A DNA stretch of 16,024 nucleotides, taken from Candidatus Heimdallarchaeota archaeon. GTDB lineage: Archaea > Asgardarchaeota > Heimdallarchaeia > Heimdallarchaeales > Heimdallarchaeaceae. Position numbers and translations under genes: made by a program. This document shows, one piece after another, positions 4,033 to 14,734 of the stretch. Positions within the stretch are counted from its first letter, which is position 1; the number at the start of each line of letters is the position of its first letter. The stretch spans positions 1-16,024 of the forward strand of contig DAOVET010000054.1 in assembly GCA_030668825.1 (NCBI GenBank), in the 5' to 3' direction. The notes under the pieces are model-generated. The model worked only from the letters and a program-made list of their open reading frames with translations. It did not search any database and had not been told where the DNA came from.

Positions 4033-4154
4033 ATTCACTCTTCTATCCTTTTTTACTTTTATTCCTTCTCAATAAACTTATAATATCTTTTTGTTATCTT
4101 GTCACCTTAAAAGGATGAGAAATATACTTAAAATGCTCTTTTGTGCGCGTATTT

Positions 4155-4168
4155 CAAGGGTTTTTATA
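4155..4168 (+). promoter_or_regulatory. Archaeal BRE/TATA promoter of tnpB copy 1 (probably leaderless)
   Basis: CAAGGG-TTTTTATA; the TATA 3' end (4168) is offset 23 nt from ATG 4191. Copy 2 has the same motif at the same spacing. Confidence 0.65.
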
Positions 4169-4190
4169 CTTAAGTCTAGCTGAACTTATG

Positions 4191-5435
4191 ATGACTACAG
4201 TTTTACGTGTGGAATGTATAGAAGTAAGTTATCATCCAGTGTTAAGCAAGCTTTGTCATCAAGTTAAGAATCTCTATAATCGAGCAAATTTTCTAGTAAA
4301 AACTTCATTGAAAAAGGACAACAAGCTCCTCTTTTACTATGACCTCAATACTCTACTAAACCATGAAGAATGTTATAAAAGTCTCCCTGCTCATACAGCC
4401 CAACATACCCTTAAACTCCTGTGTAGAAATTGGAAAGGGTATTTTACAGCTAAAAAGGAGTGGATACAGAATCCTGAAATGTTCTTCGCTATGCCCCAAT
4501 CACCTGGATATAAAGCTAAGGATGGGGAAGTGGTAGCGATTTTCTCCAACCAACAAGCAAGAATAGTCAATGGGTGGCTGGTTCTACCTAGAAAAGTGGG
4601 ATTTTATTGCAAAACACGTCTTAGTCCCCTTGCTAAACTAAGAGAAGTGAGGATCGTACCACGAAGAGTAGGGTATACAATTGAACTCGTCTATCAGAAG
4701 ACTTTACCTAAACTTAGGAAACGAACCAAAAGAAAAGGAGCAATCGATTTAGGGATGGTCAACCTAGTAACCTTTGTGGATAACCTTGGATCTCAACCGA
4801 TTGTTATCAAGGACACGGGGAAAGGAATAAAATCAATTACACAACATCATCTAAAAAAACAAACACAATTACGAGAACAATATGTACAACAGCAACGAAA
4901 ACAGCTGAAAGCTAAGAACAAACTTGAGTATGGTCCTGCATATTATAAACTCAGAGAAAAATGGAGAAAGAAAATGAAGGATGAAATACACAAATTAACT
5001 AGATATTTAGTAGACTTGTGGGTAGAAAGAGAGTTACATGAGGTTATCATAGGCTATAATCAGAAGTGGAAACAAGGGGTGCATTTTTGGAAGAAGATCA
5101 CCCAGATGTTTGTTGCTATTCCCGATATGCAAATCATCAACATATTGAGGTACAAGGCTGCGGAGAAGGGGATAAACGTTGAGCTCATTCCTGAAGAGTA
5201 TACCTCTAAATGTAGTTTTCTAGATAATGAATTTCCAGAAAAGAGAAAGAAGTATGCAGGACGAAGAGTAACTCGAGGGTTATTTCGTTCTGCTCAAGGG
5301 TTTCTCATTAATGCTGATGTCAATGCAGCATACAATATTTTAATCAAAAGCGATCCGAAAGCGCTTCCTAAACGAAGTGTGAACGGGGTAGGAGGATACG
5401 TGATGTATCCACTTAGAGTGAGTTTTCAACCATGA
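4191..5435 (+). CDS. tnpB: RNA-guided endonuclease TnpB (rearranged RuvC-II type)
   Basis: KNLYN.AN, RuvC-I GAIDLG, IIGYN..WKQ, EEYTSKCSFLD, RGLF, RuvC-III NADVNAAYNI. The start is set to 4191 by alignment with copy 2 (MTTVLRVEC vs MVEVLRVEC) and by TATA spacing. Confidence 0.95.
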   Translation: MTTVLRVECIEVSYHPVLSKLCHQVKNLYNRANFLVKTSLKKDNKLLFYYDLNTLLNHEECYKSLPAHTAQHTLKLLCRNWKGYFTAKKEWIQNPEMFFAMPQSPGYKAKDGEVVAIFSNQQARIVNGWLVLPRKVGFYCKTRLSPLAKLREVRIVPRRVGYTIELVYQKTLPKLRKRTKRKGAIDLGMVNLVTFVDNLGSQPIVIKDTGKGIKSITQHHLKKQTQLREQYVQQQRKQLKAKNKLEYGPAYYKLREKWRKKMKDEIHKLTRYLVDLWVERELHEVIIGYNQKWKQGVHFWKKITQMFVAIPDMQIINILRYKAAEKGINVELIPEEYTSKCSFLDNEFPEKRKKYAGRRVTRGLFRSAQGFLINADVNAAYNILIKSDPKALPKRSVNGVGGYVMYPLRVSFQP

Positions 5436-5516
5436 CCTCTAAGAAAGATGTTCAACTCATTCTTGTCTAGACGACAAGGAGACAACAACTCATCATAATT
5501 GTTTAATTATTGTTTT
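5345..5516 (+). ncRNA. Putative omegaRNA (reRNA) of tnpB copy 1: scaffold about 5345-5496, guide about 5497-5516
   Basis: Stems GCGCTTC/GAAGTGT, GGATAC/GTATCC (loop GTGAT 5400-5404, complementary to terminal ATCAT 5492-5496), CTTAGAG/CTCTAAG and CTTGTC/GACAAG. A 30-nt block is identical to copy 2. The 5' end is approximate. Confidence 0.75.
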
Positions 5517-9360: not shown

Positions 9361-9619
9361 AATTAAACTGCAGTATAAAAGGTAAATAACTTTTCGGATT
9401 TGGAGGATAAAATTTTAAATGATTAGCTACAATTTACAAGTATGTTACAGGCGTTATTCTGGATTTAATCAATAAATGCGATATTTCTAATTCTACATGA
9501 GATTGAATCTGCTTATTGGAAGGAGTGGGAGTTGTTCAAAATGAAAGGAGGAATAACTGGATTCGTAATCTTGCATATACCAATACTTGCTTTGATTTTT
9601 CTGGGTTTAATTACTTTAT

Positions 9620-9852
9620 AACCTGTTTTTTGTACATTTTTTTGGTATTTAAATAGGGTAGTGTAGATTATAAGTTGAAGGATTATAGCTATGCACCAGT
9701 ACTATGGTGATCCTCGGGGCTATATCCAACGAACTTCCAAAAGCGAACCGTAAGCATCTTAGTAAGAGGATGTGGGCGGTGTAGGAGGGGATGTGGCGTC
9801 CCCATGATGTGCCTTGGGCACTTCTAAAGAATTTGTACAAAATTCATGTCAT
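9620..9852 (+). mobile_element. Non-autonomous, protein-free IS200/IS605-type mini-element carrying an omegaRNA-like scaffold
   Basis: Precise removal restores the host frame. Junction register TTTAT|AACC...GTCAT|ATGA (ATA microhomology allows a 3-nt slide). Internal homology to both tnpB 3' ends; TTTGTACA near both ends. Confidence 0.8.
9648..9655 (+). promoter_or_regulatory. Putative TATA box inside the mini-element
   Basis: TTTAAATA about 20-25 nt upstream of the start of the structured region (about 9674-9680). Confidence 0.45.
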
Positions 9853-9872
9853 ATGATCCTTCCCGAACTGGT
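9674..9872 (+). ncRNA. Putative stand-alone omegaRNA: 5' extra domain, scaffold to 9852, guide about 9853-9872
   Basis: 9738-9804 aligns without gaps to 5345-5411 and to 13435-13369 (44/67 identities vs copy 2), with covarying stems. Loop GTGGC (9793-9797) pairs with terminal GTCAT (9848-9852). Confidence 0.75.
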
Positions 9873-10151
9873 ATGGTTGTATCAATTCTTTTGTGTGCTG
9901 GAGGTATCTTTGCGTTTTCAATTCACACATATTTCATCAAACAAGGAAAAGAAGAATTTACTCTACCTATATCTAAAATACTTCTTTGTATCATTCTCGT
10001 GCTTTCTGTTGCTCAATTAGTAATTACAATACTAGCAATAATCAAGTTTGATCCATTATACGTTATCTCTTAGTAGTATTTTGTGATAACTTCTTTTCTT
10101 TTTTAGGGAAAAAAATATAAACATAAGCAATGTATTCACATCTTGATAGTA

Positions 10152-13261: not shown

Positions 13262-13435
13262 CTAGTAATTACACAAAATTAATGATGTGTAGTTATCACC
13301 TTGTCGTCATTGACAAGGATAGTTGAGAGTCTTTCTTAGAGGTTCATTGCTTGTAAGCTCACTCTGAGTGGATACATCACGTATCCTCCTACCCCGCCCA
13401 CACTTCTAGGTGGAAGTGCTTGCGGATCGCTTTTG
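13262..13435 (-). ncRNA. Putative omegaRNA of tnpB copy 2: scaffold about 13435-13282, guide about 13281-13262
   Basis: Same stems as copy 1 (GCACTTC/GAAGTGT; GGATAC-GTGAT-GTATCC; CCTTGTC/GACAAGG at 13299-13318) and terminal CATCAT. Confidence 0.75.
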
Positions 13436-14589
13436 AGTAAAATATTAAAGGCTGCATTCACATCAGCATTAATGTAAATTCCAAGGGAAGATTTGAAGAG
13501 TCCCCGAGTCACTCGTTGCCCTGCATAGTTTTGGTGCTTTTCTGGAAATTCGTTATCAAGAAAACTGCATTTAGAAGTATATTCTTCAGGAATAGTTTCA
13601 ACAATAATTCCAACATCTGCAGCTTTGTATTTCAATAACTTAATGAATTTAAGATAAGGGATTGTGACAAACATCTGGGTGATTTTTTTCGAGAAATGGG
13701 CTTTATGCTTCCACATGGGATTATACCCTATGTTCACCTCATCTAATTCCCGTTCCACCCACAGATCGATTAAAAATCTTGTGAGTTTATGGAGAGAATC
13801 CTTCATCTTCTTACGCCAGTCTTCCCGCAACTTATAATATGCTGGACCATAACGCAATCTATTCTTTTGTTTCAATTGCTTAAGTTGTTGTTGCACATAT
13901 TGTGCTCGTAGTTGAGTTTGTTTTTTTAAATAATACTGTGTAATTGATTTTATTCCTTTCCCTGTATCTTTAACAACAATCGGTCTATTCCCGAGGTTAT
14001 CCACAAAAGTCACAAGGTTCACCATCCCTAAATCTATAGCTCCCTTTCGTTTTGATTTTTTTCTTGGTTTTGGTATGGTCTTCTGGTAGACAAGTTCGAT
14101 AGTATACCCCACCCTTCTTGGAACGATTCTTACTTCTTGAAGTTTGGTAACGCAAGTGAGTCTAGTTTTATAGAAGAAAGGTACTTTCTTGGGTAAGATA
14201 AGCCACCCATTAACTATCCTAGCTTGTTGGTTTGTTAAAATAGCTACAACTTCACCATCTTTAGCTTTGTAGTTTGGTGGACGGGGCATAGCAAAGAAAT
14301 TTGAGGGTTTTTTTCGCCATTCTTTTTTAGCTTCGAAGTATCCTTTCCAGTTTCGAGTTAGAAGCTTGAGAGTATGTTGAGCTGTATGTACTGGAAGTAC
14401 TCTATAACATGTTTCGTGGTTGAGGATAGAATTAAGATTGTAATAATAGGGGAGTTTTCCATCCTTCTCCCAAGCGGTTTTCACTAAATAATTCGCTCGA
14501 TTGTAGAGATTTTTCACTTGATGGCAGAGAGTACTTAACGCTTGATGGTACTTCACTTCTATACATTCTACCCTTAGTACTTCTACCAT
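13336..14589 (-). CDS. tnpB: RNA-guided endonuclease TnpB (rearranged RuvC-II type)
   Basis: GAIDLG, NIGYN..WK, EEYTSKCSFLD, NADVNAAFNI; 69/91 identical to copy 1 over the N-terminal 91 aa (hand count). Confidence 0.95.
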   Translation of the reverse strand: MVEVLRVECIEVKYHQALSTLCHQVKNLYNRANYLVKTAWEKDGKLPYYYNLNSILNHETCYRVLPVHTAQHTLKLLTRNWKGYFEAKKEWRKKPSNFFAMPRPPNYKAKDGEVVAILTNQQARIVNGWLILPKKVPFFYKTRLTCVTKLQEVRIVPRRVGYTIELVYQKTIPKPRKKSKRKGAIDLGMVNLVTFVDNLGNRPIVVKDTGKGIKSITQYYLKKQTQLRAQYVQQQLKQLKQKNRLRYGPAYYKLREDWRKKMKDSLHKLTRFLIDLWVERELDEVNIGYNPMWKHKAHFSKKITQMFVTIPYLKFIKLLKYKAADVGIIVETIPEEYTSKCSFLDNEFPEKHQNYAGQRVTRGLFKSSLGIYINADVNAAFNILLKSDPQALPPRSVGGVGGYVMYPLRVSLQAMNL

Positions 14590-14611
14590 CCTTCATTAAG
14601 CTAGAGTTGAA

Positions 14612-14625
14612 TATAAAAACCCCTG
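14612..14625 (-). promoter_or_regulatory. BRE/TATA promoter of tnpB copy 2
   Basis: Minus-strand CAGGGG-TTTTTATA; the TATA 3' end (14612) is offset 23 nt from ATG 14589, the same spacing as in copy 1. Confidence 0.65.
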
Positions 14626-14734
14626 TAATTCCTTTATATTGCTCTTGTACTCTTGCAATTATTGTGAATTCTTAGTAAGGAGAGAAGGAGACAGAGACAA
14701 CTTTTATAATGAAGGAAATTCTCGTCTAAACATC

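What the first reader, a model, noticed from the sequence alone, without database searches (positions are those of the whole stretch)
9620..9872. Stand-alone mobile omegaRNA cassette (protein-free TnpB guide element) inserted in a host gene
Seen in sequence: a 233-bp insertion splits a DUF6713-like gene. Its 9738-9804 segment aligns gaplessly with the tnpB 3' ends (44/67 vs copy 2). The TnpB reading frame is dead (KSEP*AS**EDVGGVGGDVASP*), but the pairing is preserved by compensatory changes. Stem GCACTTC/GAAGTGT becomes GCATCTT/AGGATGT (3 double changes), GGATAC/GTATCC becomes GGGGAT/GTCCCC (2 double changes) and TCCG/CGGG becomes ACCG/CGGT. The loop:3'-end pseudoknot GTGAT:ATCAT becomes GTGGC:GTCAT. 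A TATA box lies upstream inside the element. Established knowledge: TnpB omegaRNA overlaps the ORF end and the IS right end, has a terminal pseudoknot and takes its guide from flanking DNA; non-autonomous IS200/IS605 derivatives are known. Inference: this is a minimal element under selection for RNA structure only, borrowing TnpB (and a transposase) in trans, in a probable Asgard archaeon.
Basis: partly seen in the sequence, partly recalled or inferred. Interest (0 to 1): 0.9.

Follow-up and report, generated by a model that had tools for sequence, protein, structure and literature searches.

The report
Protein-free guide-RNA mini-transposon, Asgard archaeon
A 233-base mobile element that has lost its nuclease gene but keeps the promoter and the folded guide RNA of a TnpB transposon sits inside a broken host gene of a Heimdall-group archaeon; such stand-alone guide elements are already described in bacteria and haloarchaea, so this is a very well documented new example, not a new kind of thing.

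Summary
Window 9620-9852 (233 bp; one-base ambiguity) is an insertion in a DUF6713 gene. Two same-genus genomes carry the uninterrupted site, one reading exactly TTTAT|ATGATCCTTCCCGAAC. The element is a repeat: 6 copies in this genome, and matches in 14 of 24 sampled congeners. Its 3' 113 nt are homologous to the omegaRNA region at the 3' end of the genome's 19 tnpB genes (44/67 gapless identities). The stems are kept by compensatory changes, both against the tnpB-linked copies and within the tnpB-less family. Its TATA box aligns with the tnpB promoter's. It is therefore a non-autonomous IS200/IS605 (IS1341-type) derivative, a PATE or "stand-alone omegaRNA". It probably makes a guide RNA used in trans by resident TnpB. 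That step is inferred: no RNA data were found. No Y1 transposase was found in this genome or in 24 congeners. The kind is already in print (PMC10055086, PMC10691335, PMC3119063). Verdict: real, correctly read, and a new member of a known kind. Interest is moderate.

The parts
9616..9619 (+). TTAT target / TAM on the left flank
   Evidence: 26 of 31 distinct left junctions of the family end in TTAT; the others are 3 ATAT, 1 TTTT and 1 TATT. The tnpB-bearing copies also follow TTAT.
9620..9852 (+). The 233-bp tnpB-less element (PATE / stand-alone omegaRNA element). It can equally be written 9621-9853.
   Evidence: Empty sites in G018 and G012. There are 5 further copies in the genome at 82-97% identity with other flanks.
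9620..9647 (+). Short left end. It holds TTTGTACA (9629-9636), which recurs in the right end (9832-9839).
   Evidence: direct repeat D3; ends 9617-9643 and 9827-9853 are 20/27 complementary.
9648..9655 (+). Archaeal TATA box TTTAAATA. The predicted transcript start lies about 9677-9682, at the invariant GAAGGA.
   Evidence: It aligns with the TATA boxes upstream of 19 tnpB copies. It is invariant or nearly so in 26 family members. The start site is inferred from spacing, not measured.
9680..9727 (+). 5' domain H1: an outer stem GGAT.TATAGC/GCTATATCC around a hairpin CACCA/TGGTG
   Evidence: RNAalifold on 26 copies. Four pairs change on both sides: 38-78 GC:18/AU:8, 42-73 CG:16/AU:9, 41-75, and 49-61.
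9739..9852 (+). omegaRNA 3' domain (about 113 nt), homologous to the 3' end of tnpB plus the IS right end
   Evidence: Alignment A1 with 19 tnpB-linked copies. Covariance model R1 scores it at 122.5 bits.
9747..9780 (+). Stem H2: ACCG/CGGT around GCATCTT/AGGATGT
   Evidence: 5 of its 7 inner pairs change on both sides across 41 sequences.
9787..9803 (+). Stem H3: GGGGAT/GTCCCC with loop GTGGC (9793-9797)
   Evidence: Pairs 52-64 (GC:26/AU:15) and 53-63 (GC:22/UA:19) are compensated against the tnpB-linked form.
9806..9824 (+). Hairpin H4: GATGTGCC TTG GGCACTTC
   Evidence: Pair 170-174 reads CG:8/UA:7/UG:7 within the family.
9829..9845 (+). Subterminal hairpin H5 (GAATTT GTACA AAATTC). It is a candidate right-end hairpin for a transposase.
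   Evidence: 99.3% of cells paired, with no double changes. The role is inferred.
9848..9852 (+). Right terminus GTCAT, the proposed 3' strand of the pseudoknot with loop 9793-9797
   Evidence: Pair 60-168 reads CG in 22 tnpB-less copies and UA in 19 tnpB-linked copies. That is one event.
9853..9872 (+). Flank that would be read as the guide (ATGATCCTTCCCGAACTGGT)
   Evidence: With TTAT in front it equals the empty site of G018 letter for letter. Its use as a guide is inferred.
9442..9619 (+). N half of the split DUF6713 gene, with nonsense TAA at 9466-9468
9853..10073 (+). C half of the split DUF6713 gene
4082..5496 (+). tnpB IS copy 1 (tnpB 4191-5435, omegaRNA 3' domain 5347-5496). The left boundary is approximate.
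13282..14705 (-). tnpB IS copy 2 (tnpB 13336-14589, omegaRNA 3' domain 13282-13433). The left boundary is approximate.

Best explanation
Window 9620-9852 is a non-autonomous deletion derivative of a tnpB-only IS200/IS605-family element (IS1341 type). It is a PATE, or 'stand-alone omegaRNA' element.

Shown:
- It landed 3' of TTAT in a DUF6713 gene without a target duplication.
- It belongs to a genus-wide repeat family.
- It keeps the tnpB promoter's TATA box, a structured 5' domain and the roughly 113-nt omegaRNA 3' domain up to the right end.
- The stems are maintained by compensatory substitutions although no protein is encoded.

Inferred:
- Transcription starts about 25 nt after the TATA box, runs through the scaffold and out of the right end, and so takes the flank (ATGATCC...) as its guide.
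- A TnpB made by one of the genome's roughly 19 tnpB elements loads this RNA in trans.
- The complex cuts TTAT-flanked copies of the site that lack the element. Repair from a filled copy then restores the element there (the published homing/retention mechanism).
- Movement to new TTAT sites needs a transposase supplied in trans. None was found.
For: Insertion and ends:
- Empty sites in 2 congeners.
- One DNA-run contig skips exactly 233 bp, though the shorter side of the joint is only 27 letters.
- Six copies in the genome have sharp common ends and unrelated flanks.

Family:
- Matches in 14 of 24 congeners and in 0 of 16 genomes of other genera of the order.
- An exact 23-mer of the element was found at 28 public loci, all in Heimdallarchaeota MAGs or metagenomes. 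22 show the short tnpB-less form and 6 are cut by a contig end.

Homology:
- 44/67 gapless identities, against at most 36 for shuffles.
- The covariance model scores the element at 122.5 bits, among tnpB-linked copies at 110-130 bits.

Structure across 22 tnpB-less plus 19 tnpB-linked copies:
- 97.6% of 901 cells are paired.
- 9 of 22 pairs change on both sides.
- The covariation score is 0.394, against 0.199 for shuffles (0/500 reach it).
- Slid controls give 34-51% paired.

Structure within 26 tnpB-less copies:
- 98.0% of cells are paired.
- 11 of 48 pairs change on both sides (0/500 shuffles reach this).
- Slid controls give 37-49% paired.

Other:
- The TATA box is in register with the tnpB promoters.
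- No conserved ORF: the longest frames differ in frame, strand and sequence among 23 copies.
- A second, unrelated-looking tnpB-less family carrying the same core exists (C133, C105, C127).
- Published precedent for trans use: passages read in PMC10691335 and PMC10055086.
Against: - No transcript evidence. No listed run is on record as RNA. The one 'RNA?' run is probably DNA and covers only the repeat.
- Y1 TnpA (PF01797) was found in 0 of 25 genomes of the genus (63-94% complete) and in 3 of 16 other genomes of the order. No DDE_3 or Cas1 was found in this genome. The transposase partner is therefore unknown.
- No tnpB carrying the element's own H3/terminus variant was found in the searched collections.
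- The resident TnpBs have Gly at the canonical RuvC-II Glu and lack the C4 zinc finger. PMC10691335 says the activity of such rearranged forms 'remains to be studied experimentally'.
- The measure 'further pair types' did not exceed shuffles (252/500 and 242/500).
- Shuffles ignore relatedness, and the structure was derived from these sequences.
- H3 invariance among L001-L028 is by construction, because it was the search pattern.
- The pseudoknot has one compensatory event. An alternative partner (AUGA:UCAU) was seen by eye and not tested.
Confidence: 0.75

Rival explanations
1. The conserved pairing serves DNA rather than RNA. The stems would be single-strand DNA hairpins that a transposase needs at the ends of IS200/IS605-type elements, and the element makes no functional guide RNA.
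For: IS200/IS605 elements are recognised through subterminal hairpins on one strand (passages in PMC10055086 and PMC3119063). H5 (9829-9845) sits 7 nt from the end. The two ends are 20/27 complementary. Sequence alone cannot tell an RNA stem from a top-strand DNA stem.
Against: H2 and H3 lie 50-105 nt from the end. They are the stems shared with the tnpB-linked omegaRNA region, where they overlap coding sequence and still co-vary. G.U pairs are kept (G110.U130 in 26/26, U149.G155 in 26/26). A TATA box is kept at the right distance upstream.
Confidence: 0.1
2. It is an inert deletion remnant that still hitch-hikes on the transposition machinery. The omegaRNA part would be there only through recent descent, with no selection on the RNA and no trans use.
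For: PATEs arise by core deletions, and some are only fused ends (PMC3119063 passages). Solo right-end fragments of this family exist (L096). The own-genome copies are 92-97% alike, so they are young.
Against: The family spans 74-98% identity across 15 genomes, yet 98% of cells stay paired and 11 pairs change on both sides. Loops take indels while stems are kept. A second tnpB-less family kept the same core independently.
Confidence: 0.1
3. It is a terminal-inverted-repeat MITE moved by a DDE transposase with a TA target duplication, and not an IS200/IS605-type element.
For: The ends are 20/27 complementary. Read as TA|ACCTG...GTCA|TA, the filled and empty sites of this copy also fit a TA duplication (my reading). 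TA stands before the element in 31/31 left junctions, and A follows GTCAT in 34/35 right junctions. PMC10691335 reports TnpBs in IS630-type elements with symmetrical ends.
Against: The repeat is offset by 2 nt from such termini. One copy has GTCAT|TA. The homologous tnpB-bearing copies end in ATCAT followed by a base other than A in 9 of 19, so TA duplication fails for them. No DDE_3 was found in the genome.
Confidence: 0.05

Closest known systems
Stand-alone omegaRNAs of OMEGA systems (Altae-Tran et al. 2021, as summarised in the introduction of PMC10691335; I read only that passage)
   Same: A mobilised guide-RNA locus without effector or transposase, in a genome that also holds effector-bearing loci. 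The guide is taken from the flank outside the transposon end. It is said to work in trans with compatible effectors.
   Different: This one is in an Asgard (Heimdall-group) archaeon. It has its own archaeal TATA box and an extra 5' domain not evident in the tnpB-linked copies. Its scaffold variant (H3 plus terminus) was not found attached to any tnpB. Trans activity was not tested.
PATEs, palindrome-associated transposable elements (Haloquadratum, PMC3119063; Geobacillus stearothermophilus, PMC10055086; passages read)
   Same: No target duplication; too short to encode a transposase; derived from IS605-type elements by core deletion. [quoted passage not shown] Meers et al. state that PATEs 'often encode omegaRNAs' that would need TnpB in trans. 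The puzzle of mobility without an intact IS200-type transposase is shared.
   Different: A left-end palindrome is not evident here. The ends instead share TTTGTACA and are partly complementary to each other.
ISDra2 TnpB omegaRNA (cryo-EM, PMC10097598; passages read)
   Same: The functional scaffold is of similar size (116 nt there, about 113 nt here). It overlaps the tnpB 3' end and runs to the right end. A pseudoknot uses the last nucleotides before the guide. The 5' part is dispensable or disordered.
   Different: There is no detectable sequence similarity. No Rfam family matched and the protein found no solved TnpB by phmmer. In ISDra2 the pseudoknot partner lies in the loop of the 5'-most stem; here the proposed partner is a 5-nt loop of the middle stem, which is sterically tight. 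TAM is TTGAT there and TTAT here.

Membership tests
IS200/IS605-family non-autonomous element (PATE) | No target-site duplication | tested here: met
   The empty site of G018 equals left flank plus right flank with nothing duplicated. The junction can slide by 1-2 bases because the left flank ends TAT and the element ends CAT+A.
IS200/IS605-family non-autonomous element (PATE) | Insertion 3' of a fixed short oligonucleotide, with a similar oligonucleotide at the right terminus | tested here: met
   TTAT in 26 of 31 distinct left junctions. The terminus is ..GTCAT in all 35 right junctions matched by a pattern that also allowed GTTAT. tnpB-bearing relatives show TTAT and ATCAT.
IS200/IS605-family non-autonomous element (PATE) | No terminal inverted repeats; palindromes close to both termini | tested here: inconclusive
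   A right-end hairpin is predicted at 9829-9845. No left-end hairpin was found. The ends are 20/27 complementary to each other through a shared TTTGTACA.
IS200/IS605-family non-autonomous element (PATE) | Too short to encode a transposase; no conserved ORF | tested here: met
   The element is 233 bp. The longest frames (30-69 aa) differ in strand, frame and sequence among 23 copies.
IS200/IS605-family non-autonomous element (PATE) | A Y1 (HUH) TnpA available in trans | tested here: not met
   PF01797 found in 0 of 25 genomes of the genus; this genome is 90.6% complete. MAGs can miss such genes, so this does not show absence.
TnpB omegaRNA | Homology to the region overlapping the 3' end of tnpB and reaching the right end | tested here: met
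   (122.5 bits with model R1).
TnpB omegaRNA | Conserved secondary structure supported by covariation | tested here: met
   with the caveats stated there.
TnpB omegaRNA | Pseudoknot involving the nucleotides just 5' of the guide | tested here: inconclusive
   5 of 5 pairs are possible in all 41 sequences, but there is only one double change (CG:22 against UA:19), which is a single event.
TnpB omegaRNA | Transcribed, bound by TnpB, and guiding TAM-dependent cleavage | not testable with these tools
   No RNA holder was listed.
Rfam families (any) | Match to a curated covariance model | tested here: not met
   cmscan of the window at E<=1 gave only 2 chance-level matches elsewhere and none in 9620-9872.

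The most novel reading that the evidence does not exclude
The tnpB-less elements may be an independent lineage of 'guide-RNA parasites'. They have their own promoter, their own 5' domain, and a scaffold variant (H3 plus terminus changed in concert) found on no tnpB gene in the collections searched. They would exploit RuvC-II-rearranged, zinc-finger-less TnpBs. The genus shows no Y1 transposase in 25 genomes. New insertions, and the head-to-tail RE-TAT-LE junction seen in two DNA runs, would then reflect a way of spreading that does not use the canonical TnpA.
Probability: 0.1. Interest if true: 0.75.

Novelty: new member of a known kind. Interest (0 to 1): 0.38.

Why it matters
It is a clean natural experiment. 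Once the protein frame is gone, what stays conserved marks what the RNA itself needs: single-stranded AAAGCGA.CCG and GTAGGAGG, three stems, and the terminus. This gives a natural roughly 113-nt minimal scaffold for a little-studied archaeal TnpB clade (Gly at RuvC-II, no zinc finger). It extends stand-alone omegaRNAs to Asgard archaea. It also sharpens an existing puzzle: tnpB-only and protein-free IS605-type elements with recent insertions in genomes where no TnpA is seen. It does not open a new category.

Tried and rejected
Rfam: no family matched the element.

Expression: the look-up of sequencing runs listed no holder on record as RNA. The one 'RNA? (probably DNA)' run, X20, gave 3 contigs inside the repeat and none on the flanks. 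This says nothing either way.

Cognate tnpB: I looked for a tnpB carrying the element's own H3/terminus.
- The exact 23-mer found only the short form, or contig-cut copies.
- Three internal hits to the right-end tail alone (L096-L098) are short remnants without tnpB or core.
- A degenerate core pattern found nothing in viral contigs.

Transposase candidates in this genome: Y1 none; Cas1 none; DDE_3 none. There are 3 resolvase genes, on contigs that hold no tnpB hit. I did not examine their neighbours.

TA-duplication/TIR model: considered after and kept only as a minor rival. I tried to settle it with the one copy whose right flank starts with T (L064). The orthologous intergenic region differs by an extra 15-20 nt in the relatives, so there is no clean empty site.

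Small protein on the minus strand (63-aa ORF 9649-9840): rejected, because it is not conserved.

H1 as a relic of a stem inside tnpB: I compared by eye with the tnpB-linked copies. No supporting covariation was seen, so the origin of H1 is left open.

Solved structures: phmmer with TnpB copy 1 found no TnpB. No structure prediction or complex prediction was run.

Supplements of papers were not opened. Extended Data Fig. 2e of Meers et al. and the supplements of Altae-Tran et al. may show closer precedents. Altae-Tran et al. 2021 itself was not read; it is known to me only through the citing passage.

Full report
**Where it lies.** The window is contig C26 of a 2.76-Mb, 138-contig genome that is 90.6% complete. 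It holds two tnpB genes, at 4143/4191-5435 (+) and 13336-14589 (-). Both match Pfam OrfB_IS605 and Cas12f1-like_TNB. The finding lies between an SDR gene and the remains of a DUF6713 gene.

**The insertion is real.**
- The frame 9469-9618 matches DUF6713 profile positions 7-53 (E 1.9e-17).
- The frame 9846-10073 matches positions 59-114 (E 3.6e-13).
- A search with the C half found the gene in 9 of 24 congeners besides this genome.
- In G012 and G018 the two flanks of the window abut. G018 reads ...GGGTTTAATTACTTTAT|ATGATCCTTCCCGAACTGG..., and both have an open frame (137 aa in G018).
- The extra stretch is 233 bp, at 9620-9852. Because an A stands at 9620 and at 9853, it can equally be written 9621-9853.
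- Nothing is duplicated.
- The window's gene also has TAA at 9466-9468 where both orthologues have Tyr. It is decaying as a pseudogene.
- A contig of DNA run X3 skips 9617 to 9851 (233 bp). It carries several other differences and its shorter side is only 27 letters, so it is probably the empty site of a related strain.

**It is a repeat family.**
- blastn in the genome found five more copies: C123 at 97%, C38 at 96%, C109 at 94.5%, C53 at 92% and C92 at 82%. All span the same ends and have unrelated flanks.
- In a sample of 40 relatives the element matched in 14 of 24 same-genus genomes, with up to 14 matches each and many at contig ends. It matched in 0 of 16 genomes of other genera of the order.
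- An exact 23-mer from the element occurs at 20 loci of the species-representative genome collection, all titled Candidatus Heimdallarchaeota MAGs, and at 8 metagenome loci.
- 22 of these 28 show the short form with the left end or TATA region in register. The other 6 are cut by a contig end.
- Among distinct junctions, 26 of 31 left flanks end in TTAT (3 ATAT, 1 TTTT, 1 TATT). All 35 right ends read ...GTCAT, and 34 of 35 are followed by A.

**It descends from the tnpB elements.**
- tblastn found about 19 tnpB copies of this family at 54-83% amino-acid identity. The TNB Pfam search counted the same 19, 15 of them with open frames of 391 aa or more.
- All end ...ATCAT. Upstream alignment puts TTAT before their left ends.
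- Segment 9738-9804 aligns without gaps to copy 2 with 44/67 identities and to copy 1 with 43/67. The next best place in the window scores 33, and 200 shuffled 67-mers reach at most 36.
- In the TnpB frame the element reads KSEP*AS**EDVGGVGGDVASP*, starting at 9739.
- The TATA box TTTAAATA (9648-9655) aligns with the TATA boxes 22-27 nt upstream of the tnpB start codons.
- The element therefore looks like an internal deletion that puts the tnpB promoter directly in front of the RNA.
- The left end is much shorter than in the tnpB copies: 28 nt from TTAT to the TATA box, against about 95 nt.

**RNA structure.** I aligned the 3' domains of 22 distinct tnpB-less copies and 19 tnpB-linked copies (A1).
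- 97.6% of 901 cells are standard pairs, against a shuffle mean of 86.7% (0/500 shuffles reach the observed value).
- 9 of 22 pairs change on both sides, against a shuffle mean of 6.7 (6/500).
- 131 cells carry double changes, against 47.1 (0/500).
- The covariation score is 0.394, against 0.199 (0/500).
- With the 3' partners slid by 1-3 columns, 34-51% of cells pair and 1-3 pairs show double changes.
- The measure 'further pair types' was not above shuffles (252/500).
- The pseudoknot (loop columns 56-60 with the last five bases) can pair in all 41 sequences. Its only double change is CG in the 22 tnpB-less copies against UA in the 19 linked copies, which is one event.

Within the tnpB-less family alone (26 sequences from the TATA box to the right end, A2), RNAalifold predicts 38 pairs, 11 of them with double changes. 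My count of 48 pairs, which includes H5 and the pseudoknot, gives:
- 98.0% paired, against 94.0% for shuffles;
- 11 pairs with double changes, against 6.0 (0/500);
- slid controls at 37-49% paired, with 0-4 such pairs;
- 'further pair types' again not above shuffles (242/500).

This includes a 5' domain, H1 (9680-9727), which I could not find in the tnpB-linked copies.

Caveats on these counts:
- The shuffles ignore relatedness.
- The structure was derived from these sequences.
- H3 is invariant in L001-L028 by construction, since it was the search pattern. The 6 own-genome copies, found by BLAST, also all have it.

**Covariance model.** Model R1 (139 positions, 17 pairs) finds 30 loci in the genome at E<=0.01:
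- 19 tnpB-linked copies;
- the 6 copies of this family;
- C133, C105 and C127, which belong to a second tnpB-less family of about 340 bp (TTTAT...AAATCAT, 73% identity between C133 and C105 over 328 bp);
- a weak hit at C82;
- a hit cut by the start of contig C12.

So at least 9, and perhaps 10-11, of 30 omegaRNA-type loci have no tnpB. In relatives, R1 matched in 13 of 15 congeners and 0 of 9 genomes of other genera.

**Mechanism.**
- The shown steps are the insertion, the family, the homology, the maintained pairing and the promoter alignment.
- The inferred steps are transcription from about 9677-9682 through the right end, loading by a resident TnpB, and TTAT-dependent cutting of the empty site. 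In G018 that site equals TTAT plus the would-be guide letter for letter. Repair from a filled copy would then follow.
- This is the published homing model (PMC10055086, passages).
- The ISDra2 structure paper gives a 116-nt functional scaffold whose last bases form a pseudoknot (PMC10097598, passages). The size matches. The position of the pseudoknot partner differs.

**Weak points.**
- There is no RNA evidence.
- Y1 TnpA was found in 0 of 25 genomes of the genus and in 3 of 16 others. No Cas1 or DDE_3 was found here.
- In 8 aligned TnpBs the invariant residues are D186, IGYN with Gly at the usual RuvC-II Glu, E335, and D376 in NADVN. There is no C4 zinc finger. This resembles the 'RuvC-II rearranged' clades of PMC10691335, whose activity that paper says remains to be studied. 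I did not place these proteins on that tree.
- The ends are 20/27 complementary. A TA-duplication reading fits this one copy, but it fails for the tnpB-bearing relatives, where 9 of 19 right flanks do not start with A.

**Novelty.** Three papers already describe this kind of element.
- PMC10055086 states that PATEs 'often encode omegaRNAs' that need TnpB in trans.
- PMC3119063 defines PATEs and describes one that keeps a disrupted C-terminal coding part.
- My searches for TnpB together with Heimdallarchaeia/Heimdallarchaeota listed no paper containing both. Passages of an archaeal IS survey (PMC13343696) mention MITEs only in general.
- So this is a new member of a known kind. It is well supported, and its modest added value is the Asgard setting and the clean evidence of RNA-level constraint.

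Noticed in passing
G000 C133:16543-16699, C105:7942-8099, C127:11296-11459 (own genome, not in window): A second tnpB-less family of about 340 bp with the same omegaRNA core. It follows TTTAT, has its own TATA box and a different 5' part, and ends AAATCAT. C133 and C105 are 73% identical over 328 bp. The C105 copy follows what looks like a tRNA 3' end; this was not tested with ARAGORN.
   Followed up: partly
window 9852 joined to 9617, in contigs of DNA runs X2 and X3: A head-to-tail junction ...GTCAT+TAT+AACCTG... appears in one contig in each of two runs. Its depth is 32-36, like the single-copy flanks, and its shorter side is 45-46 nt. It is three bases longer than a canonical IS200/IS605 circle junction. 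It could be a tandem pair or a circular form. It is not in this genome's assembly or in the loci then held.
   Followed up: partly
window 9466-9468: An in-frame TAA in the N half of the split DUF6713 gene, where both orthologues have Tyr. This is secondary decay of the disrupted gene.
   Followed up: yes
whole genus (25 genomes): No Y1 transposase (PF01797) in any of 25 same-genus genomes. Yet there are up to 31 omegaRNA-type loci per genome, and insertions differ between species.
   Followed up: partly
window 4191-5432 and 13339-14589; L105-L110: The TnpBs of this family have IGYN (Gly where RuvC-II Glu usually stands), an invariant Glu in I.E.YTSK, and NADVN. They have a single Cys, or none, where the C4 zinc finger usually lies. 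phmmer finds no solved TnpB.
   Followed up: partly
L099 (G013:C81) about 224-538: The orthologue of the C92 copy carries a nested insert of about 315 bp inside the omegaRNA, between AAACCGT and CGTAAGC. The insert is related to repeats on C127, C138, C15, C45 and C133. On C133 the matches lie beside two of four large TNB-domain ORFs of 635-671 aa (C105:44376, C133:6669, C133:8904, C4:6241).
   Followed up: no
G000 C27:2503-2709: A further TNB-domain ORF of 523 aa from another TnpB-like family.
   Followed up: no
window 9677-9687 and 9852-9862: The predicted 5' end of the RNA (GAAGGATTATA) is 10/11 complementary to the would-be guide of this copy (TATGATCCTTC). The other five copies of this genome have other flanks, so this is probably chance.
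   Followed up: no
L096 1728-1777; also L097, L098: Solo fragments of about 50 nt of the family's right end (H4 plus tail), with no core, left end or tnpB upstream. They are remnants.
   Followed up: yes
L014 913-1014 (+) and 1280-1391 (-): A tnpB-type omegaRNA core and a copy of the short element lie head to head within about 270 nt in another MAG.
   Followed up: no
G000 C82:6406-6524: A weak, tnpB-less match to the omegaRNA model (34 bits, E 0.007), with a GGAGGGGCTGTGGCGTCTC-like stem. It may be a degraded or third family.
   Followed up: no
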